DNA of 64,000 nt from Escherichia phage vB_Eco_mar003J3: sequence record NC_048203.1; one strand, written 5' to 3'. Every line of letters starts with the position of its first letter. The stretch's first letter is position 1. Positions 22,330 to 62,992 of the stretch are shown piece by piece. The translations under genes were made by a program, and so were the position numbers. Below the pieces are notes generated by a model that ran no database searches, was not told the DNA's origin, and saw nothing but the letters and a program-made list of their open reading frames with translations.

Positions 22330-22812
22330 TTAAGCCTCCGGCGCAGGGTTGATAGTTGTTACACACTCATTAGAAGTAATGGAAGTAGATTTACTATCCG
22401 TTACAACAACTTTGTAAGTACCAGCATCTTCTGCAGCAGCTGTAGCTTTGTTGAAATTAGGGCCAGTAACACCACTTAGTGGAGAACCGTCTTTAGTCCA
22501 AGCATAAGTATATGGTGCAGTACCACCAGTAACTGTTACACCCAGATTAATTGCTGCACCAGTATCAACAGCTAGAGTTTTAGCCAGATTCTTTGTGAAA
22601 GCTAGTGCCGGAACAACCGGAGCAGTAATTTCGTATGCTTCTTTGAACTTGTTCCAAACCTTGCGGTTGGTATGTGCAGTGGTCATTCCAAACTCTTTAC
22701 GTAGAGTAGCGTAGTTTGGAACGAACTTGTGTGCTGCAACCGTAGCAAAGAAGATATGAGATTCTGGCAGCTTTTCACCAAAAATGGCCTTTAGACCAGC
22801 ATAATCAATCAT
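22330..22812 (-). CDS. capsid decoration protein with Ig-like domain (T5 pb10-like)
   Basis: 160 aa; C-terminal TVTGGTAPYTYAWTKDGSPL...GTYKVVVTD Ig-like signature. Confidence 0.65.
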   Translation of the reverse strand: MIDYAGLKAIFGEKLPESHIFFATVAAHKFVPNYATLRKEFGMTTAHTNRKVWNKFKEAYEITAPVVPALAFTKNLAKTLAVDTGAAINLGVTVTGGTAPYTYAWTKDGSPLSGVTGPNFNKATAAAEDAGTYKVVVTDSKSTSITSNECVTTINPAPEA

Positions 22813-24026
22813 TCTTTATCCCCATCGGCAGTGCCTTGCGGTCTACCACCTTCTTGACCAGATACACCTGTTGCAGAACCAGCAATGTTAGCAGGAATAC
22901 GAATCTTATTCATCTGCTCATCATCTAAAGGTTCAAGGTTAAGCTCTTCACGAGCTTCGTTACCAGTCATGATACCGTTATTAACCAAAGAGGTTAAATG
23001 TTTAGCCTCAGCTTCTTTATCTGGCGTCAGTGCAGCCACTTCCTTAGTATTAGGAGTAACCTTGTAGCCAAAGAAGAAAGTAAGAGAACTAGTCAGCTTG
23101 TTCAGCATGGGAATGATAGTCATGTAATAGAACAATTCGATGTTTGGTCGAATGTTAGCATTATTACCACCATCAAGTAACACTTGCGGAACACCAAAGG
23201 CAAGACAGATGGATTTATTAAATCCTTCGATATCTTCCTTGAAGTCTAGATCTTTAAAAGAGGATATTTGGGAGTACGGTTTTGCTTTCATACCACCATC
23301 TAGAATCAGGACAGTAGACTGACCCGTACTAGGATTATAATCGAGTTGTAATTCTTCTTGTTTACGCTCACGCAATTTCTTGTTCAGGATTTCATCCGTC
23401 TCAAGAATAAGACCAATCACAGTGCCGTTATCGAGGAACTTCTCTTTAAAGTTAAGCATTTTAGAACGCTTCTCAAGAGAGTCAATAACTGTAGCAACAC
23501 GAGATTGTCCAGAAATTTGGGAGTTTGTGCCACACACGTAACTGTTATCCTTTATAAAGATAATCTCATCTACGCGATAGTCTATCTGGTTATTAAATAT
23601 GAATTTTTTGATAAACTTATTGGCATCTGCCTCTACTTGCATTAGTGCAGCAGGGACATGGTAAAGTGCTGTGCCATCCCAATAGATGTATGCACAACCC
23701 TCAAAAAGTAGATCAGTGACTACAAGTCTACGGAATGTGCTTATATCCATGAATGGATTAGGTCGTACATTTAAGAGAGTGTCTAGAGTCTTTGCCTTGA
23801 CGCCGTTAGCGTACGTGACAATATTATATTTATCTCCGACAGTATAAGAACACTCCGCCGCACTATCGATAACCATGTTAGCAGTTCGGTTGAGAATCTC
23901 AATCTTACTGTAGGCTTGTCCAGTGGTAAATGGCTTACGGTTAGTGCGATGACTAACTGGTTCCATGTCTCTTATAATACGTTGACCCGGATTTAGCTTT
24001 TCAGTAATCCAGCTTTTTAAACCCAT
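22809..24026 (-). CDS. portal protein (T5 pb7-like)
   Basis: 405 aa, upstream of protease, downstream of terminase. Confidence 0.75.
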   Translation of the reverse strand: MGLKSWITEKLNPGQRIIRDMEPVSHRTNRKPFTTGQAYSKIEILNRTANMVIDSAAECSYTVGDKYNIVTYANGVKAKTLDTLLNVRPNPFMDISTFRRLVVTDLLFEGCAYIYWDGTALYHVPAALMQVEADANKFIKKFIFNNQIDYRVDEIIFIKDNSYVCGTNSQISGQSRVATVIDSLEKRSKMLNFKEKFLDNGTVIGLILETDEILNKKLRERKQEELQLDYNPSTGQSTVLILDGGMKAKPYSQISSFKDLDFKEDIEGFNKSICLAFGVPQVLLDGGNNANIRPNIELFYYMTIIPMLNKLTSSLTFFFGYKVTPNTKEVAALTPDKEAEAKHLTSLVNNGIMTGNEAREELNLEPLDDEQMNKIRIPANIAGSATGVSGQEGGRPQGTADGDKE

Positions 24027-24550
24027 TATAAGAACCTTGCGAATCCTGATTTAGTTTCAGTCTTGACTTGTGTCTTTTCTTGAGGATTCTGTAGCTTTTC
24101 CTTTTGTTTAAGAACCCATACCTTCTGCTTATTAGCAGAGAAAAGGGGTGGTTCTTTAGTGTACACCTTATGTAATAGTTGGTGATGGTGGACACAAAGG
24201 GTAACAGTGTCATCTACTAGCTCATGCCTATATCTTTCATAGAATGCCGTCCTATTTGAGAGGACTATTTCTTCGTCAGTGAAATCCAATTGGAGTTCTT
24301 TAGCAAATTTTTTAACTAGTAGAGACACTGTATGGTAATGATGAAGTTCTAATTCTTCACCACAACCACAGATTTCGCAGCGATCGGCTTTTTTATATTG
24401 ACTTTTTATACCGTCTCGCATGAGTGATATAGCATCACGTTTATATTTTACATTTCCTGCCACAGTATTCTCCTCAACTGTATGAATATAGTATACATAA
24501 TCATGTCGAATTTGTAAAGGGGATTTTAAAATGCAGGAATGGGATACCAA
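24026..24550 (-). CDS. HNH endonuclease
   Basis: CEICGCGEELELHHYH ... CVHHHQLLH zinc-binding HNH motifs; between large terminase and portal. Confidence 0.7.
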   Translation of the reverse strand: MVSHSCILKSPLQIRHDYVYYIHTVEENTVAGNVKYKRDAISLMRDGIKSQYKKADRCEICGCGEELELHHYHTVSLLVKKFAKELQLDFTDEEIVLSNRTAFYERYRHELVDDTVTLCVHHHQLLHKVYTKEPPLFSANKQKVWVLKQKEKLQNPQEKTQVKTETKSGFARFL

Positions 24551-24577
24551 CTGAGTAGTATCCTATCCTATACTTAT

Positions 24578-25894
24578 TTATTTCCCACGGGAAATTGAGT
24601 AAATTCCATAACGCAGTGCGTCACAAAGGTGAGAGTTCGCATCATGACGTGGTTTTTCACGTGATAATTTCTCTTCACCTTCCTGGAAGTCCCACTTGTA
24701 GTTCGCTAAGGCGTGGATCAATGAGGTACATGAAGCATCTACGATGATCTTACCTTGCTGGAACAGTGCTTGCAGGCATGCCAAACCATCTAGGACGGAT
24801 TTCTTAGCAGGAGCAGAAGCGATTTCATGTTCATAAGCTAAGTCCTGACGGAACTGAGCAGCGGCGGAGTCTACAAATATACGATCAACATTATAACGAT
24901 CTATGCAGTGCTGGATATAAGCAGCGTGTTGGGCTGTAGTCTTTTCAGCCTGCTGATACTCTTCTAGTATGTAATAAACATCAGTATCATAGTGATACTT
25001 GATAGTAAGAACTGCTGTAGGGTCACGATAACCAACGTCGATACCAAGTAATGTTTCGAAAGCCTCATCATCTTTAAAGAAGTGACGCATACCTTTGAGG
25101 TCTTTAACGTGCTCGATAGCATTGAAGGTATCAAAGATCTGACCTTCGAATACGGAGAAGTCAGCCTCATATTCTTGACGGAAATAGTTTTTACTAACAG
25201 TACGACGCGCTTCTTCGATATCGTTCAGGTCAGCACGTGGGTTATCACGATATGTACCATGAATAGATACCCAATTAGGTAGCGTTTCGTTAAATCCTTT
25301 CTCATAGAACTCTTTGAACCAGTTACCCCCACGAGGAGTAGAGATAAATAGAGCTTTAGAGTTTGGCTTATCTAGGGTAGGACGTAACTGAATATCGAAA
25401 GCTGCACCACCAACGTCGGAAATCGCTGCTTCGTCAAAAATGATGAAGTCATATGAACGACCAACCGCGGAGTCAGCCTGCGCCGCGGAAGCCAGTTTAA
25501 AGAGTGAACCATTCGCTAATTCAATCTCTTTATCTTTGGCGTTCTCACGTTCAGTCTGTAATCCATACTTTTTAATAAGACCACGAATCTGTGACCAACC
25601 AATGTTAGCCAGTGAGTAGTTAGGTGCAACTACTAGCACCTTCACATTGGGTTCCAGAAGTTTTAAGAACCCAAGTGTATATGCGATGAACGACTTACCT
25701 ACACGACGTGATACACATGCAGTTACGAAACGGTGTCTAGGATCTTCCAGCGCGTTAATAATTGCAACCTGAGGGGCGTTAGGCGTAATCCCCTCTTGAG
25801 CTAGAATGCTAGAGACTGGCAGACGGAAAAATCGTTTGTCAATACCAAAGTCAATAACATCTGTGGTGTTAATATAATCTCTAGAGACCTTCAT
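24578..25894 (-). CDS. terminase large subunit
   Basis: 438 aa (T5 large terminase 438 aa); Walker A-like VSRRVGKS; C-terminal acidic nuclease-like segment. Confidence 0.8.
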   Translation of the reverse strand: MKVSRDYINTTDVIDFGIDKRFFRLPVSSILAQEGITPNAPQVAIINALEDPRHRFVTACVSRRVGKSFIAYTLGFLKLLEPNVKVLVVAPNYSLANIGWSQIRGLIKKYGLQTERENAKDKEIELANGSLFKLASAAQADSAVGRSYDFIIFDEAAISDVGGAAFDIQLRPTLDKPNSKALFISTPRGGNWFKEFYEKGFNETLPNWVSIHGTYRDNPRADLNDIEEARRTVSKNYFRQEYEADFSVFEGQIFDTFNAIEHVKDLKGMRHFFKDDEAFETLLGIDVGYRDPTAVLTIKYHYDTDVYYILEEYQQAEKTTAQHAAYIQHCIDRYNVDRIFVDSAAAQFRQDLAYEHEIASAPAKKSVLDGLACLQALFQQGKIIVDASCTSLIHALANYKWDFQEGEEKLSREKPRHDANSHLCDALRYGIYSISRGK

Positions 25895-26376
25895 TATCTC
25901 TTACCTCCTCCTGCTAGAGCGGTAATAAGATTCATATAGTTTTCGTCACCACTTCCAGCAATAATATTATTCTGAATGTTAGTCTGGTTAGCCGGAGTAC
26001 GGGCTGCTGCCTTCACTTTCTCCAGTTCTACCATCATTTTCATTTCTTCCATCTTCATCTTATGCGCCTTCCAGAGAATATCCATGATATCCTGGTCAGA
26101 ACCCATGCCAGTTTCTTCGAGTTCTTCCAACTTGCGCTTGATAACTTCATCAAGAACTCCGAATAAGCGGTCACGATTACGGAAGCCACTTTCCATAAAG
26201 ATATCGTTGAGATAGTTTTTAACTTCCCCACGATTCATTATATCACGGAATACAATCTCGGACATTCCAAGACTACGAGCGGCGGCAGGAACATCACTAC
26301 CGCACTGTAAATAGGCTTCAATAACATCCATGCCCTCAGGAGACATGAGATCGGGAACTAATACATCATTTGCCAT
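25894..26376 (-). CDS. putative terminase small subunit / DNA-binding protein
   Basis: 160 aa immediately upstream of large terminase, start overlapping. Confidence 0.4.
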
Positions 26377-28251: not shown

Positions 28252-28518
28252 ATGAAAAAGTTACTAGCTATCGTAGTTGCAGCAGTAGTGTTGACTGGTT
28301 GTGTACCAGCTCCCGAGCCGTTCTGTAAGGCATACGTGAAGTCTTATGGTCATGTTGGTGAAGAACACTATGCTTTAGATATTCGAGAAGCACGTACTGT
28401 GGGCTACCGATTCCCTAAAACTCAGTTACGCACTAAGTTTGGGTGGTGGGATCTGTCACAGTTTGATCTCAAATATGGCGATTGCAAATTTAAACTAGAA
28501 CAATCTGGTCACTTGTAA
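28252..28518 (+). CDS. llp: lipoprotein, superinfection-exclusion Llp-like
   Basis: 88 aa with signal peptide and lipobox LTGC; divergent from receptor-binding protein gene. Confidence 0.55.
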   Translation: MKKLLAIVVAAVVLTGCVPAPEPFCKAYVKSYGHVGEEHYALDIREARTVGYRFPKTQLRTKFGWWDLSQFDLKYGDCKFKLEQSGHL

Positions 28519-29288
28519 TTAGTATAAAGTAAAAAGATCTCGAAGTAAACAAAAATTTTTATTTCTGGGATGAGGTACAGGTAGCAAACACAATGCAAGA
28601 TGAAGAAAAGCCCTTTCAGGAACCTGTTAACTTTGAAATAGATCCCAGGACTAAAGCAATACATGATGCGATTAACGAAATCATTCAAGACGTCATAGAA
28701 GATACAATATAAGACGTGATGGGAACATCCTTCTTACTAGAAGAATCCGGCTTCGACGAAGTAATGGATCTAATCGGGACAGTCGTAATGGTTCGTGCAA
28801 TTGCTAGGGTATTCCAAATACCAAGACTATAGGAGAAGCAAAGAGATGTCAGACGACAACAGAAGAAAGAACAGACGCGGGGAAGTGTACGAAAGTTGGA
28901 TAAATAGTTTCGGATTCGGAACTGTATTATTCTTTATCTTTGTACTCTTTTGGTTAGCGGCTATGGCGGGGTGGTTATAATGGAAGTAATAATTATTGCT
29001 TTACTAGTTGTGGTAATTATCGGGCAGTGCATTTTAGATAACCACTTAACTCGTATCGAACGTAAGCTGCGGGGAGACAAGTAATGTTTAGTTTTGTAGC
29101 TATCTTCATTATTGGGGTACTTGCGGGAATCTTCGGAACACTCGGGGCGATTAATAAGCATCGTGAATATATTGTGGGAGTATCGCGGGAGCTTTCGGAA
29201 AGGGAGCGGAGGTTTGCAGAAAAACGGGAGGAGTTCGAGCGAGAGTGGAGTGCTGGCTCAAGAAGCTCTCGTAGGAGATTTAAGATAG

Positions 29289-29786
29289 ATGACAAATCAT
29301 AAGCCCTTACTTCCCTTAGAGGAATACCAGAGTAAGTTCGATTATGATCCAGAAACAGGTATATTTACTTGGAACTCGGGGAGTCGTAGAGGTAAACCAG
29401 CTGGCGGCCGTAATGACTCGGGCATTTCCCTTTCTATGGGCAGCAAAGGCAAGTATAAGGCCCACCGAGTGGCGTGGTTATACATGACAGGGGAAGATCC
29501 AGGAGATCTTCTAATAGATCATAAAGATCAAGACCCCTGGAACAATAAATGGAACAACTTACGAAAAGCTACGAATAAAGAAAATAGTAATAACTCTTCC
29601 GGATGGGAAAATAAATCCACAGGTGTAAAAGGGATATATAAGAGGACAGAAGGGAAGTTCGAGGCGAGAATACGTGCTAACGGGGAAAGAATCAACGTAG
29701 GTACATTTGGTAGCCTCGAGGAAGCTGAAAGTGCGATAAGGGAAGCACGTGAGAAAGTATGTGGTGAGTTCACAAACCACGGTTAA
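29289..29786 (+). CDS. HNH homing endonuclease with AP2-like DNA-binding domain
   Basis: IDHKDQDPWNNKWNNLRKATNKEN HNH motif; GVKGIYKR...FEARIRANGERINVGTFGSLEEAE AP2-like; opposite strand to neighbours. Confidence 0.7.
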   Translation: MTNHKPLLPLEEYQSKFDYDPETGIFTWNSGSRRGKPAGGRNDSGISLSMGSKGKYKAHRVAWLYMTGEDPGDLLIDHKDQDPWNNKWNNLRKATNKENSNNSSGWENKSTGVKGIYKRTEGKFEARIRANGERINVGTFGSLEEAESAIREAREKVCGEFTNHG

Positions 29787-29959
29787 TAGCGCTAATTTGA
29801 AAATCTTGAAATTTCATAAGATTACACATGCGGATGTGCTCAGTGGGACTGGAGATAGTTAGTAGTCTAATAATCCCCCTGTGTTACTATTACCATGCTA
29901 ACTGTTTCATCCTGTAACCATTTTTTAATTACAGGATGAAACTATTTTATTTTTAATTG

Positions 29960-30694
29960 TTAGGCAACTTTTAATTTATCAATGAATTGTTGCGGAGCGG
30001 TACTATAGTCTCCCCTTTCTTCCTCAGTCATACCCTGCCAGCACATTTCTAAGCGCTGGCAAAGATATTGATAATCATTATCATCATCTAACGATTCATC
30101 AATAAAGGTTTCACCGATCAATGCTACGCCGATTGATAGGATATCGTTAACGGCTTGGGCGTCCAGTGTTTTGAATCCAGCACTTGCCGCCACCGATAAT
30201 ACGCCTTTATGATCATCAATCATCGTAAAATCAGCGTTTGGATATAGCTGTTTAAATAGTTCAAAGTAATAGCTTTTGTATACAGCGTCTTTGCTGTGGT
30301 ATATTTCGCTAACCTTATCCGCTTCAAAGTATTTGTGTAATGTATCGCGGGAGAATACGCGGATATTGCTATTTCCGCGCCCTCGCAAGCCTTGTTTACG
30401 CAAATAAAAGTAATCGCTTTTAGACATAAGGCGCGCGGTACAAATAACATTTAAAGTATTTGCATCATTCATACATTGGCGCATATATTCAACCAACGGC
30501 AATAAAGAATCCTGCATAATTAAATCATGTTTACAGGCTTCGCGGGAATACTTATTTAAATTTAAATTCCCGTTATCATCAAAGCAAGGCGCTACACGAT
30601 GGAAAGAATTAATGATTGTGCCGTCCAGATCCCAAATCATGACGCGGGAAATATGCGGGAAATTATGGGTAATATTCGTTTTAACTTGATTCAT
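29960..30694 (-). CDS. dmp: HAD-family 5'-deoxynucleotidase (T5 Dmp-like)
   Basis: 244 aa; HAD motif I WDLDGT near N-terminus. Confidence 0.55.
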   Translation of the reverse strand: MNQVKTNITHNFPHISRVMIWDLDGTIINSFHRVAPCFDDNGNLNLNKYSREACKHDLIMQDSLLPLVEYMRQCMNDANTLNVICTARLMSKSDYFYLRKQGLRGRGNSNIRVFSRDTLHKYFEADKVSEIYHSKDAVYKSYYFELFKQLYPNADFTMIDDHKGVLSVAASAGFKTLDAQAVNDILSIGVALIGETFIDESLDDDNDYQYLCQRLEMCWQGMTEEERGDYSTAPQQFIDKLKVA

Positions 30695-30774: not shown

Positions 30775-31167
30775 TTAAAGACCATACGCCAACGCATCAG
30801 CGATAAAACTAATATCCTCACCTGATACACTGGAACGAATCCCCGCGCAAGTGTAGACCTTTGCAGACATAAGAGCATTATCAAGGCAAGCGGGGCATGG
30901 CGCGACAACTGCAAACGCTAGACCTGATTTTACAGCGTCAATAATAACAGTTTGCTCTTTTACGGTATCAATATAAACGCCTTTTGCTTTTGTATGGCTT
31001 GACGCTTTACCGGTAATGTATGCAAATGTTGTTACCTGTAGCGCCTCGTTAAAGTCTAGCAGTTCATCAATAATATGACCCGATTCAACGTGATAACGCT
31101 CGCCATTAGAATAAACTAGAACGATGGAAGAAGTAGCGTGATCAAAAGGAATGTTTTGGTTTTTCAT
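30775..31167 (-). CDS. A2: pre-early protein (T5 A2-like)
   Basis: 130 aa, immediately downstream of A1-like gene. Confidence 0.4.
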   Translation of the reverse strand: MKNQNIPFDHATSSIVLVYSNGERYHVESGHIIDELLDFNEALQVTTFAYITGKASSHTKAKGVYIDTVKEQTVIIDAVKSGLAFAVVAPCPACLDNALMSAKVYTCAGIRSSVSGEDISFIADALAYGL

Positions 31168-38575: not shown

Positions 38576-38606
38576 CGGCAGGCAGGGCAATTTGCCCTGC
38601 GCTTTT

Positions 38607-39739: not shown

Positions 39740-40465
39740 TTATAGATCGTGATTGACTTTGAGTATGACTCCCTTCGATGCCATGAAAAGGAATGTTGCT
39801 AGGTAAGATGACTCGGAATTTAGCGCAGAATAATCTACACTTCCTCTAGGTCTAGTTTCTTGTTTAGTGTCAAGAATTGTTTCGATATCAAACTTAACAG
39901 ATCTTGCAACTTTTCTAGCTTGTTCAGGATCACGTAAGATTTCAAAGTGAGCAGCATCTAGAATATGGTTAGATGATGTTGATTCGTCAACTATACTTAG
40001 ATGAACCTGCGCAAGTGTAGATACGATTCCTAGCTTTAATTCAGATAGAGAAGAATATGGTGGTTCTACTTTCTTTGTAAGTCTAGGGAGATGATCGTAT
40101 TTACATTGCTTTTGAGGAATCATCAGAATATTAGGATAACATTCTAAACATGACTTTGCATTTCCTTCTTTAAAATGCGGGAGTTCTTTATCTGCAAAGA
40201 CGTGGAATGAATCTGCTGAAAATCCTTTAATAGTAGGATCAACAGTTTGAATCAGACGACGTAAACTAATATATGAAGGAGCTAATGTGACTTCTTCTGC
40301 ATCTTTATTATATTTAGGTTGCCCACTAGCATTAATATATGCTGGATAAAACTCTGCACAAAATGCTACTGCATGAGCTTCTAACTCATTAAGTTCGGAA
40401 ACATTCTTTCCATTACAAGCTCTAGCTAACTTAATAATCTCTGCTAAATTCTTTTTTATACTCAT
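39740..40465 (-). CDS. early hypothetical protein
   Basis: 241 aa; first minus-strand gene after repeat array. Confidence 0.5.
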   Translation of the reverse strand: MSIKKNLAEIIKLARACNGKNVSELNELEAHAVAFCAEFYPAYINASGQPKYNKDAEEVTLAPSYISLRRLIQTVDPTIKGFSADSFHVFADKELPHFKEGNAKSCLECYPNILMIPQKQCKYDHLPRLTKKVEPPYSSLSELKLGIVSTLAQVHLSIVDESTSSNHILDAAHFEILRDPEQARKVARSVKFDIETILDTKQETRPRGSVDYSALNSESSYLATFLFMASKGVILKVNHDL

Positions 40466-51060: not shown

Positions 51061-51813
51061 TTATCCAACTAGTGGTTCTAGCTCTAAGTCACAGAAGTGG
51101 TATACATCAGTACGAAGTGCATCAAGTCCGTTGAAGGTATTCTCAAATTTATGAGAAATGTATTTTTCAGGAATACCGCTTTCAGACGGATGATCTGTCT
51201 CGATGCGATACTTATTAGTAATACCAGATTCAACCTTAATAAGTATGGAATCCATATCTAGAGTATTGGATTCCATGATTAGCTCTCCCTCATTTGGAAA
51301 ACGCACATCGGTAACGATTGCGACGTCTGGGTCGTCTTTATCGATGGATTGCTCCAGAATTATGAGCCAAATGCGTTCATGCACCAGCTGCCTTCCTAAC
51401 TCAGTACCTACAAGCTGTAGCATTTTTCTTGGGGAGATAAATACGCTATACAGCGCATCATCAGCTTGCCCAATTAACTGCTGAGGATCAAGGTATTTTC
51501 CTTCAAAAATAGGCCAAACGTACGAGAAGTCCTCAAACTTATCGATACCATACTTAAACCATACGTCTCTAGCTCGCTCCAGCTGAGATTGTGTGACCGT
51601 AAACCATTGGTCAATCTCCTTTCCCCTGCGCTCTCCCAGAAACTCTGGAGTTACCCCGAGGATTACGGATGCAAGTTCGTAAACGGGTTTAGCAAAACTG
51701 TAACGACGGGATAAACACGTTGGGAACGTGTCATTACACCAGTCAATCATTAATTCTGCAACGGTATCTTTTCCCGCACCAGCCTCACCATGTAAACCGA
51801 CTAATACTGACAT
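51061..51813 (-). CDS. deoxynucleoside monophosphate kinase (P-loop)
   Basis: 250 aa; Walker A GLHGEAGAGKDT. Confidence 0.6.
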   Translation of the reverse strand: MSVLVGLHGEAGAGKDTVAELMIDWCNDTFPTCLSRRYSFAKPVYELASVILGVTPEFLGERRGKEIDQWFTVTQSQLERARDVWFKYGIDKFEDFSYVWPIFEGKYLDPQQLIGQADDALYSVFISPRKMLQLVGTELGRQLVHERIWLIILEQSIDKDDPDVAIVTDVRFPNEGELIMESNTLDMDSILIKVESGITNKYRIETDHPSESGIPEKYISHKFENTFNGLDALRTDVYHFCDLELEPLVG

Positions 51814-62345: not shown

Positions 62346-62420
62346 TGGCGGTACTAAGGGTAATCGAAACCCTACCTCTCCCGTGACAGGGGAGTATCCT
62401 AACCATTAGACTATAGTACC
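62346..62420 (-). tRNA. tRNA-Asp, anticodon GUC
   Basis: acceptor GGTACTA/TAGTACC; anticodon arm CTCCC-CTGTCAC-GGGAG. Confidence 0.7.
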
Positions 62421-62992
62421 TTTAACTTTTTAAGTTCTTTAGGATTGCCTCCTAAAGAAGTGTATCTTTTACGCAACCCATTGTCTGAATAACTTAACTT
62501 TCTCCCTGCACCTGACCAGCCTAGCTCTCTTACTGTAACCTCGATTATTTCTTTAGTTATAGAGATATCTTTTGGTTTATGTGAAGAGCACTCCTGACAT
62601 TTTTCAGCTTTTAAAGAAATAGCTTTACCACAATCCTTACAATAATTATCATGGTTTAGTTTACTAAATCCTTTGTCTTTTAAAGTCTTTTCTAGATGCT
62701 GCTCTTTTGTGAGCACTTGTAAGTTATTAAGACCCCAATAAGTAATGTCTGTGTTAATATGGTCAACTTCTAGTTCAGAGTCTAGACTTGGTAATTTCTT
62801 AAATGCACATGCTAAAATCCTATGTACACCGGTATTTCTCGGTTGACCATTTTTATGGAGACGTATAGATAAGTATCCGTAATTACTGGTTATTGGGGTT
62901 AGTATTTTGTTTGATTTGATACTAAATACTAACCCATCCAAACTTACTAAGTACTCCTCAAACCCTGGAATGGGTAAGGATATTCCGTGCAT
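62411..62992 (-). CDS. HNH homing endonuclease
   Basis: EVDHINTDITYWGLNNLQVLTKEQH HNH motif; embedded in tRNA array. Confidence 0.65.
   Translation of the reverse strand: MHGISLPIPGFEEYLVSLDGLVFSIKSNKILTPITSNYGYLSIRLHKNGQPRNTGVHRILACAFKKLPSLDSELEVDHINTDITYWGLNNLQVLTKEQHLEKTLKDKGFSKLNHDNYCKDCGKAISLKAEKCQECSSHKPKDISITKEIIEVTVRELGWSGAGRKLSYSDNGLRKRYTSLGGNPKELKKLKVL

What the first reader, a model, noticed from the sequence alone, without database searches (positions are those of the whole stretch)
24026..24550. HNH endonuclease between portal and large terminase
This is the position where HNH proteins act as terminase cofactors in many cos-type and other siphophages, though it may simply be a homing endonuclease insertion. 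Two further HNH genes occur in this window: 29289..29786 on the opposite strand with an AP2-like domain, and 62411..62992 inside the tRNA array. That is a high load of free-standing endonucleases.
Basis: partly seen in the sequence, partly recalled or inferred. Interest (0 to 1): 0.4.

Follow-up and report, generated by a model that had tools for sequence, protein, structure and literature searches.

The report
T5 SciA genome-nicking endonuclease ortholog
The small nuclease gene between the large terminase and portal genes of this T5-like phage is the ortholog of T5 SciA, a known enzyme that cuts one DNA strand at specific sites, so the finding is real but ordinary.

Summary
The window comes from a T5-like phage (Demerecviridae, Epseptimavirus; 98-99% nucleotide identity to phages YZU-L1, Stitch and Seabear). 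The flagged ORF is a real gene. Its true start is the GTG at 24463, which gives 145 aa, not the TTG at 24550.

The protein is 81% identical to T5.153. T5.153 is the SciA endonuclease, crystallised with GCGC DNA (PDB 9QGV and 9QGX), and the founder of Pfam PF26848 'Phage_T5_Nicking_endo'. It is a divergent zinc-binding HNH-type nuclease that standard Pfam HNH models miss.

It is a core gene: 898 phage records carry it, against 906 that carry the T5-type large terminase. It always lies directly upstream of the portal gene. That rules out a sporadic homing-endonuclease insertion.

Two of T5's mapped major nick sites (minus strand A^GCGCAGGG) are conserved in the window, at 38595-38602 and 51624-51631.

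A role as a terminase cofactor is not shown, and T5 mutants that lack nicks are viable.

The two other HNH genes are typical mobile homing endonucleases. Each is a clean insertion and each is present in only a minority of close relatives.

Verdict: already known, low interest.

The parts
24026..24463 (-). sciA ortholog: 145-aa site-specific nicking endonuclease (Pfam PF26848 Phage_T5_Nicking_endo), a divergent zinc-binding HNH-type nuclease
   Evidence: It is 81% identical to T5.153. The PDB entries 9QGV and 9QGX match at E 4.9e-77. The AlphaFold model has pLDDT 86.8 and matches those structures at TM 0.97-0.98. T5.153 equals the PDB SciA sequence apart from H42Q. PF26848 is assigned to all 93 homolog clusters.
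24470..24475 (-). Shine-Dalgarno sequence GAGGAG, 6 nt upstream of the GTG start codon (24463-24461)
   Evidence: Read directly from the sequence. Seabear annotates a ribosome-binding site at the equivalent place.
24490..24518 (-). Promoter-like element TTTACA-17 nt-TATACT in the 114-bp gap between terL and sciA. This is a consensus match only.
   Evidence: It matches 10 of 12 consensus positions. The count of such sites in the region is no higher than in shuffled sequence, so this is weak evidence.
22809..24026 (-). Portal gene. Its ATG overlaps the sciA TAA stop by 1 nt (TAATG), which suggests translational coupling.
   Evidence: PF04860, E 2e-51. The overlap is read from the sequence. T5 has the same 1-nt overlap. 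The two genes are adjacent or overlapping in Thalassa and in the metagenomic relatives, and 155 bp apart in PM135.
24578..25894 (-). Large terminase subunit gene
   Evidence: Terminase_6N, E 1.2e-14, and Terminase_6C, E 2.5e-12.
25894..26376 (-). Small terminase subunit gene. Its T5 ortholog is labelled 'SciB protein' in AY587007 and in phage Spc35.
   Evidence: phrog_3802, E 7.4e-90.
38595..38602 (-). Predicted SciA nick site 1: CCCTGCGC on the plus strand, which is A^GCGCAGGG on the minus strand, with the nick predicted between 38603 and 38602. It is homologous to T5 major nick 1 (7.9%).
   Evidence: The T5 feature is at AY587007 9661-9668. The core is identical and the flanks are homologous. 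The exact nick position comes from the AY734508 feature.
51624..51631 (-). Predicted SciA nick site 2: A^GCGCAGGG on the minus strand, with the nick predicted between 51632 and 51631. It is homologous to T5 major nick 2 (18.3%) and lies inside the dNMP kinase gene.
   Evidence: The T5 feature is at AY587007 22250-22257, inside dnk. The core is identical and the flanks are homologous.
29289..29786 (+). Free-standing HNH_3 + AP2-like homing endonuclease. It is a sporadic insertion in the variable llp-dmp region and is not part of the SciA system.
   Evidence: HNH_3, E 2.6e-14; phrog_99, E 4e-56; PADLOC homing-endonuclease model. Only 6 full-length DNA matches exist, against 516 records that match the flanks. 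In phage oselot 72 bp occupy the place of this 527 bp.
62411..62992 (-). Free-standing NUMOD4 + HNH_3 homing endonuclease in the tRNA array. It is a sporadic insertion and is not part of the SciA system.
   Evidence: NUMOD4 and HNH_3; PADLOC homing-endonuclease model PDLC03672, E 2.4e-41. It is found in 54 records, all at 95% identity or more, against 461 records that match the surrounding region. Relative to phage Sepoy, about 583 bp here take the place of about 14 bp.

Best explanation
The gene at 24026-24463 (minus strand) is the ortholog of bacteriophage T5 sciA (T5.153). SciA is a small late-expressed nuclease with a zinc-stabilised HNH-type (beta-beta-alpha-metal) active site, interrupted by a helical insert of about 43 residues.

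By homology with T5, it recognises GCGC-containing asymmetric sites (5'-R^GCGCRGG-3') and cuts only one strand. That produces the fixed single-chain interruptions typical of virion DNA in T5-like phages. After injection the nicks are presumably sealed by the phage ligase, and they reappear late in infection.

Shown here: orthology, agreement of the predicted fold with the crystal structure, conservation of the catalytic histidine and the zinc ligands, conserved gene position, and conservation of two cognate nick sites.

Inferred: that this phage's DNA is actually nicked at 38602/38603 and 51631/51632 on the minus strand; that the gene is expressed with the portal gene through the TAATG overlap; and when nicking occurs. 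The biological purpose of the nicks remains unknown.

The two other HNH genes are unrelated, mobile homing-type endonucleases.
For: Orthology and structure:
- phmmer against the PDB matches 9QGV and 9QGX ('Nicking endonuclease') at E 4.9e-77 over all 145 residues.
- Foldseek describes these entries as 'SciA(H42Q/H42A) endonuclease from Escherichia phage T5 in complex with 10 bp DNA (GCGC sequence)'. The model matches them at TM 0.97-0.98 and rmsd 0.7-0.9 A.
- T5.153 is identical to the PDB chain except for H42Q.
- Pfam PF26848 'Phage_T5_Nicking_endo' is assigned to all 93 homolog clusters, and UniRef names the closest cluster 'Nicking endonuclease'.
- The residues C29, C32, E39, H41, H42, C90, H93, H94 and H98 are invariant.

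Distribution and position:
- 898 phage records carry it, against 906 with the T5-type TerL, and the breakdown by host genus is nearly identical.
- It lies directly upstream of the portal gene in T5, Seabear, Vibrio phage Thalassa, Proteus phage PM135 and metagenomic relatives at about 45% identity.

Substrate sites:
- T5 nick sites 1 and 2 are conserved in the window with homologous flanks.
- The nick is mapped in T5 to the minus strand at A^GCGCAGGG.
- The published consensus is R/GCGCRGG, and sciA and sciB map to the late region (PMC3517423).
Against: - No experiment on this phage exists. Nicking of its DNA is inferred by homology.
- I could not find or read the primary papers on SciA biochemistry or on the structure. 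The assignment of T5.153 as SciA rests on PDB entry titles, the Pfam and UniProt names, and GenBank annotations.
- The 7-8-mer alone does not define a site. GCGCRGG occurs 5 times on the minus strand and 3 times on the plus strand of the window, including one plus-strand GCGCAGGG at 22341.
- Pfam HNH models do not recognise the protein, and the canonical Asn position is variable.
Confidence: 0.9

Rival explanations
1. The gene encodes a terminase cofactor of the HK97 gp74 type. On this reading the HNH protein binds or stimulates the terminase and is needed to cut concatemers at the genome ends, and the internal nicks are a by-product.
For: - The gene sits inside the packaging and head module (TerS-TerL-SciA-portal-protease-MCP) next to an HK97-family portal gene.
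- It has the same single zinc-site pattern, CxxC...CxxH, with a long insert between the two halves, as reported for gp74.
- Several terminase-adjacent phage HNH enzymes are themselves site-specific nickases (PMC3592412).
- The T5 TerS ortholog carries the label 'SciB' in two GenBank records, which hints at a genetic link between terminase and nick frequency.
Against: - The literature reports viable T5 mutants that lack nicks.
- The gp74-type gene order is HNH-TerS-TerL-portal next to cos, not TerL-HNH-portal.
- T5-like genomes have long direct terminal repeats (about 10 kb), not cos ends.
- hhalign of the SciA profile against gp74 is not significant (probability 1.5%).
- TerL adjacency is not conserved: a receptor-binding protein gene, or a mobile nuclease gene, intervenes in PM135, T5 and locus L018.
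Confidence: 0.07
2. The gene is a free-standing homing endonuclease that happened to insert between terL and the portal gene.
For: It is a small HNH-type nuclease. The neighbouring terL-sciA gap really is a hot spot for mobile nucleases: T5.154 in T5, a 'putative homing endonuclease' in TrudiRoth, and a DUF723/T5orf172 protein in L018.
Against: - It is present in about 99% of records that have a T5-type TerL (898 of 906).
- Its position upstream of the portal gene is fixed.
- Its divergence tracks phage phylogeny: 98% identity in Epseptimavirus, 81% in T5, 69% in Klebsiella phages and 46-49% in Vibrio phages.
- It has no PADLOC homing-endonuclease match, unlike the other two genes.
- It overlaps the portal start codon.
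Confidence: 0.02

Closest known systems
Bacteriophage T5 SciA (T5.153; PDB 9QGV and 9QGX; Pfam PF26848 Phage_T5_Nicking_endo)
   Same: It is a full-length ortholog: 81% identity and the same 145-aa length. The catalytic H42 and the Cys/His zinc ligands are the same, as is the position directly upstream of the portal gene with a 1-nt overlap. The cognate nick-site sequences lie at homologous genome positions.
   Different: About 19% of residues differ. T5 carries an extra 277-aa endonuclease gene (T5.154) between terL and sciA, where this window has only a 114-bp spacer. No functional difference is indicated.
HK97 gp74 and the other terminase-adjacent phage HNH nicking endonucleases (for example N.phiGamma)
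   Same: These are small phage HNH-type enzymes encoded in the packaging module of phages with HK97-type portal genes. They share a CxxC...CxxH zinc site, and many are sequence-specific nickases.
   Different: Their gene order is HNH-TerS-TerL-portal next to cos. They are recognised by the Pfam HNH models, whereas SciA is not. No significant sequence relationship was found. gp74 is reported to act on terminase cos cleavage (from my own knowledge: Kala et al. 2014, not read here), whereas SciA makes internal strand-specific nicks that are dispensable in the laboratory.
Free-standing HNH homing endonucleases of T5-like phages (T5 'heg' genes, including T5p073 in the tRNA region)
   Same: The two other genes in the window, 29289-29786 and 62411-62992, belong here. 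They have HNH_3 with AP2 or NUMOD4 modules, match PADLOC homing-endonuclease models, have a sporadic distribution and are clean insertions. The C-terminal half of the tRNA-array gene is 33% identical to T5p073.
   Different: SciA shares none of these properties, and its sequence is unrelated to either gene.

Membership tests
T5 SciA / Pfam PF26848 Phage_T5_Nicking_endo | Full-length sequence similarity to T5 SciA (T5.153) | tested here: met
   It is 81% identical over 145 of 145 residues. phmmer against 9QGV gives E 4.9e-77. T5.153 equals the PDB chain except for H42Q. PF26848 is assigned to the closest clusters. The local Pfam copy lacks this model, so I could not score it directly.
T5 SciA / Pfam PF26848 Phage_T5_Nicking_endo | Same fold as the SciA crystal structure | tested here: met
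   The AlphaFold model (pLDDT 86.8) matches 9qgv_A and 9qgx_A at TMt 0.98 and 0.97, rmsd 0.7 and 0.9 A. This compares a prediction with a solved structure.
T5 SciA / Pfam PF26848 Phage_T5_Nicking_endo | Catalytic His42 and the zinc ligands are conserved | tested here: met
   C29, C32, H41, H42, C90, H93, H94 and H98 are invariant in 40 diverse homologs and present in the window protein. H42 is the residue mutated in both PDB entries.
T5 SciA / Pfam PF26848 Phage_T5_Nicking_endo | Position in the late packaging and head module, directly upstream of the portal gene | tested here: met
   This holds in the window, Seabear, T5, Thalassa, PM135 and metagenomic relatives.
T5 SciA / Pfam PF26848 Phage_T5_Nicking_endo | Cognate nick sites (R^GCGCRGG on one strand) are present in the genome | tested here: met
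   The window sites 38595-38602 and 51624-51631 are identical to T5 major nick sites 1 and 2 and have homologous flanks.
T5 SciA / Pfam PF26848 Phage_T5_Nicking_endo | Strand-specific nicking activity, with nicks present in virion DNA | not testable with these tools
   This needs biochemistry or strand-resolved sequencing of virion DNA.
Canonical HNH / His-Me finger nucleases | Match to a curated HNH sequence model | tested here: not met
   No Pfam HNH family reaches significance for the window protein. Among 40 homologs the best HNH-family E-values are 0.0099 to 0.31. The only weak positive is PHROG 8048 'HNH endonuclease' at E 2e-5.
Canonical HNH / His-Me finger nucleases | Beta-beta-alpha-metal core with a catalytic His on the first strand and a Cys/His zinc site | tested here: met
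   The model has strand 38-42 (carrying H41 and H42), strand 86-90 and helix 91-101 (carrying H93, H94 and H98), plus CxxC and CxxH. The weak structural neighbours are mostly HNH proteins: Cap5 in the PDB at E 0.8, and BFVD HNH endonucleases at E 0.012-0.3. The core is interrupted by a helical insert of about 43 residues.
Canonical HNH / His-Me finger nucleases | Conserved Asn (the 'N' of H-N-H) five residues before the second Cys pair | tested here: not met
   The equivalent position (residue 85) varies among D, E, H, Q, A and Y across homologs. T86 is nearly invariant instead.
HK97 gp74-type terminase-cofactor HNH | Gene immediately upstream of terS and next to cos (order HNH-TerS-TerL-portal) | tested here: not met
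   Here the order is TerS-TerL-SciA-portal. In HK97 the HNH gene is the last gene of the linear genome. Table 2 of PMC3592412 gives the usual order. T5-like phages have long terminal repeats.
HK97 gp74-type terminase-cofactor HNH | Detectable homology to gp74 | tested here: inconclusive
   hhalign gives probability 1.5% and E 0.034. However, the alignment superposes the CxxC, the catalytic His and the C-x2-H-H motifs.
HK97 gp74-type terminase-cofactor HNH | Required for, or stimulates, terminase cleavage and packaging | not testable with these tools
   The literature reports viable nick-less T5 mutants, which argues against an essential role.
Free-standing homing endonuclease | Sporadic presence or absence among close relatives, as a clean insertion | tested here: not met
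   This verdict is for the gene in the finding (sciA): 898 of 906 T5-type genomes carry it at a fixed position.

The two other genes do meet the criterion. The gene at 29289-29786 has 6 full-length DNA matches against 516 records matching its flanks. The gene at 62411-62992 is in 54 records against 461. Both are clean insertions relative to oselot and Sepoy.

The most novel reading that the evidence does not exclude
SciA may be physically tethered to the packaging machinery (portal or terminase) by its C-terminal tail, so that nicking happens while DNA is threaded into the capsid.

The tail ends in a short hydrophobic motif (GFxRFL, LxxFKV or WxSLI) in 81 of 93 homolog clusters. The motif follows a variable linker, and the tail is missing from the crystal models.

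This reading would explain three things. Only sites in one orientation are cut, although the 7-mer occurs on both strands. The gene is locked to the portal gene across the whole family. A terminase small-subunit allele ('sciB') is reported to change nick frequency. On this view SciA would be a packaging-coupled relative of the gp74-type HNH proteins rather than a free nickase.
Probability: 0.2. Interest if true: 0.5.

Novelty: already known. Interest (0 to 1): 0.15.

Why it matters
The finding re-identifies a known, named enzyme: T5 SciA, which has its own Pfam family, PDB structures from 2026, and a 'nicking endonuclease' label in many GenBank records. It adds nothing new for the field.

It has some practical value:
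- It corrects the start codon.
- It separates one core nuclease from two mobile ones.
- It predicts two exact nick positions in this genome. These matter for nanopore sequencing and assembly artefacts, and for anyone engineering this phage.

The purpose of the nicks in T5-like phages has been an open question since the 1960s. This window offers no special handle on it beyond the family-wide linkage of sciA to the portal gene and the conserved C-terminal tail.

Tried and rejected
- Pfam (at E up to 10), NCBIfam and PADLOC scans of the protein gave nothing useful. The local Pfam copy lacks PF26848.
- A profile search of the PDB found only the two SciA entries and no other HNH structure.
- hhalign against HK97 gp74 was not significant.
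- Pairwise comparison of the three window nucleases showed no relationship, so they are not paralogs.
- Nine literature searches found no paper describing the SciA structure or biochemistry. Zivanovic et al. 2014 and Rhoades 1984 are not held in the library. The Davison preprint on two-step injection does not discuss nicks.
- Counting the short motif GCGCRGG showed no strand exclusivity: 5 on the minus strand and 3 on the plus strand. I therefore relied on homology to the mapped T5 sites rather than on motif statistics.
- The promoter-like hexamers upstream of sciA are no more frequent than in shuffled sequence, so I make no promoter claim.
Full report
**Context.** The window is from a T5-like siphophage. 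A 4-kb stretch around the finding is 98-99% identical to Citrobacter phage YZU-L1 and to Salmonella phages Stitch and Seabear (Demerecviridae, Markadamsvirinae, Epseptimavirus). The gene order on the minus strand is small terminase (25894-26376; phrog_3802, E 7e-90), large terminase (24578-25894), the flagged ORF, and portal (22809-24026; PF04860). Decoration protein, prohead protease and major capsid protein follow. Twenty tRNA genes lie at 57.2-63.4 kb.

**The observation.** The ORF exists, but its 5' end is over-called. The longest ORF starts at a TTG at 24550. The start used in curated relatives and in T5 is the GTG at 24463, giving 145 aa. A GAGGAG Shine-Dalgarno sequence precedes it, and residues 1-9 of that reading are nearly invariant across the family. 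The stop codon overlaps the portal ATG (TAATG), as in T5.

Standard HNH models do not see this protein. There was no Pfam hit even at E 10, and nothing in NCBIfam. That motif is genuine. C29, C32, E39, H41, H42, C90, H93, H94 and H98 are invariant in 40 homologs that go down to 44% identity. The AlphaFold model (pLDDT 86.8) places H41 and H42 on a strand at 38-42, followed by a helical insert of about 43 residues, a second strand at 86-90 and a helix at 91-101. That is a beta-beta-alpha-metal core with an insertion. The canonical Asn position is not conserved.

**Identity.** A sequence search of the PDB returns two entries called 'Nicking endonuclease', at E 4.9e-77 over the full length. Foldseek gives their titles as 'SciA(H42Q)' and 'SciA(H42A) endonuclease from Escherichia phage T5 in complex with 10 bp DNA (GCGC sequence)', released 2026-03-25. 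The model superposes on them at TM 0.97-0.98 and rmsd 0.7-0.9 A. The T5 gene T5.153 occupies the same position and translates to the PDB sequence apart from the engineered H42Q.

All 93 homolog clusters found in the large protein database carry Pfam PF26848, named 'Phage_T5_Nicking_endo'. UniRef calls the closest cluster 'Nicking endonuclease'. Several GenBank records already annotate the ortholog as a nicking endonuclease: Seabear, the BASEL phages, and ende, bastian and atrejo. The next-best structural neighbours are weak but are mostly HNH nucleases. They include Cap5 in the PDB and several viral HNH endonucleases in BFVD.

**Core gene or insertion.** tblastn finds the protein in 898 phage records, 896 of them at 80% coverage or more. 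The T5-type large terminase is found in 906, and the breakdown by genus is almost the same: Vibrio 356 and 356, Escherichia 128 and 128, Klebsiella 81 and 81, Proteus 10 and 10, Aeromonas 7 and 7.

Identity falls with phylogenetic distance: about 98% within Epseptimavirus, 81% in T5, 69% in Klebsiella phages, 63% in Proteus phages and 46-49% in Vibrio phages. The gene lies directly upstream of the portal gene in every case examined. These include Vibrio phage Thalassa, Proteus phage PM135 and two metagenomic relatives at about 45% identity. Adjacency to TerL is less strict. PM135 has the receptor-binding protein gene in between. T5 has the 277-aa endonuclease T5.154. One metagenomic relative has a DUF723/T5orf172 protein. 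The terL-sciA gap is therefore a landing site for genuinely mobile nucleases, but sciA itself is fixed.

**The substrate is also in the window.** GenBank record AY587007 annotates the major T5 nicks at CCCTGCGC (plus strand) at 7.9%, 18.3% and 32.6% of the genome, and at CCCGCGC at 64.7%. AY734508 places the third interruption on the minus strand between the A and the G of A^GCGCAGGG. This agrees with the published consensus R/GCGCRGG (PMC3517423).

The window carries CCCTGCGC exactly twice on the plus strand, at 38595-38602 and 51624-51631. Both copies sit in flanks homologous to T5 nick sites 1 and 2. The first lies in the non-coding region near the inner end of the terminal repeat. The second lies inside the dNMP kinase gene, as in T5. 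The short motif alone is not sufficient to define a site. GCGCRGG occurs five times on the minus strand and three times on the plus strand, including one plus-strand GCGCAGGG at 22341. The same is reported for T5.

**Mechanism and its limits.** The best-supported reading is that this is a functional SciA: a late-expressed, site- and strand-specific nickase that creates the single-chain interruptions of T5-like virion DNA. Orthology, fold, catalytic residues, synteny and cognate sites are shown here. Nicking in this phage, co-translation with the portal protein and the timing of nicking are inferred.

The terminase-cofactor idea is not supported. Nick-less T5 mutants are viable. The terminase-associated HNH enzymes have the order HNH-TerS-TerL-portal next to cos. 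A profile comparison with HK97 gp74 is not significant, although it does superpose the CxxC, His and CxxHH motifs, and gp74 has the same CxxC/CxxH zinc site. A looser link to packaging cannot be excluded. The gene is locked to the portal gene, and two GenBank records label the TerS ortholog 'SciB'. sciA and sciB are the two late-region loci that affect nicking.

**The two other HNH genes.** The gene at 29289-29786 (+) has HNH_3 (E 2.6e-14) and a sub-threshold AP2 match, and matches phrog_99 and a PADLOC homing-endonuclease model. Only 26 phage records match it at the DNA level, 6 of them over at least 80% of its length, while 516 records match the flanks. In phage oselot 72 bp occupy the place of this 527-bp stretch.

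The gene at 62411-62992 (-) has NUMOD4 plus HNH_3 and matches PADLOC homing-endonuclease model PDLC03672 at E 2e-41. It occurs in 54 records, always at 95% nucleotide identity or more, against 461 records that match its surroundings. Relative to phage Sepoy, about 583 bp here replace about 14 bp between tRNA-Asp and the next ORF. Phage TrudiRoth carries it at 99.1% nucleotide identity although its SciA is only 82.8% identical at the protein level. That fits horizontal mobility.

The three nucleases are unrelated to each other in sequence. Among 58 further ORFs of 90 aa or more, no additional HNH_3 hit appeared, and no other homing-endonuclease family was among the 25 families listed (26 matched in all). 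T5 is reported to have nine HNH endonucleases. The load here is therefore not unusual for the group.

**Verdict.** The gene is an already characterised and named enzyme, and the other two genes are ordinary homing endonucleases. Novelty: already known. Interest: low.

Noticed in passing
window 24026-24110 (C-terminal ~28 residues of SciA); homolog clusters P0001-P0093: After a variable, Lys-rich linker of 20-60 residues, 81 of 93 homolog clusters end in a short hydrophobic motif (GFxRFL, LxxFKV, WxSLI or RFSRFKC), sometimes duplicated. The tail has pLDDT below 50 in the model, and the crystal models hold only 119-121 of 148 residues. It looks like a docking peptide for an unknown partner.
   Followed up: partly
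window 24464-24577; L002 3178-4011 (T5.154); L018 3442-4428: The gap between terL and sciA is only 114 bp here. In T5 it holds a 277-aa endonuclease gene (T5.154), in TrudiRoth a 'putative homing endonuclease', and in a metagenomic relative a DUF723/T5orf172 protein. It is a recurrent landing site for mobile nucleases next to the fixed sciA gene.
   Followed up: partly
window 25894-26376: The ortholog of this small terminase subunit gene is labelled 'SciB protein' in T5 record AY587007 and 'putative SciB protein' in phage Spc35. If sciB really lies in terS, terminase would modulate nick frequency. I could not check the basis of the label.
   Followed up: no
window ~28500-29960: The window runs from the late region (pb5, llp) straight into dmp and the pre-early genes. 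It therefore spans a collapsed terminal-repeat junction, meaning a circularly permuted or repeat-collapsed assembly. The deposited left ends of several relatives map to about 29710-29950.
   Followed up: partly
window 29712-29786: The last 69-75 nt of the HNH_3/AP2 gene occur at 93-100% identity in relatives that lack the rest of the gene. In some they are annotated as part of other HNH genes (IrmaTschudi, atrejo, 1-23), and in smaug they carry no annotation. This suggests turnover of different endonuclease alleles at one site.
   Followed up: no
window 62411-62420 and tRNA-Asp 62346-62420: The 3' end of the tRNA-array homing endonuclease ORF overlaps the 5' end of tRNA-Asp by 10 nt. The C-terminal half of the protein (a CxxC...CxxC region plus a helix-turn-helix-like tail) is 33% identical to T5p073, an HNH endonuclease in the T5 tRNA region.
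   Followed up: partly
window 22341-22348 (+), 25477-25484 (-), 40006-40012 (-), 30842-30848 (-): There are further GCGCRGG matches outside the two sites homologous to T5 nicks. They include a plus-strand GCGCAGGG at 22341 and a minus-strand G^GCGCAGGC inside terL. They could be minor nick sites or uncut decoys. Which of these they are would show what determines site and strand choice.
   Followed up: no
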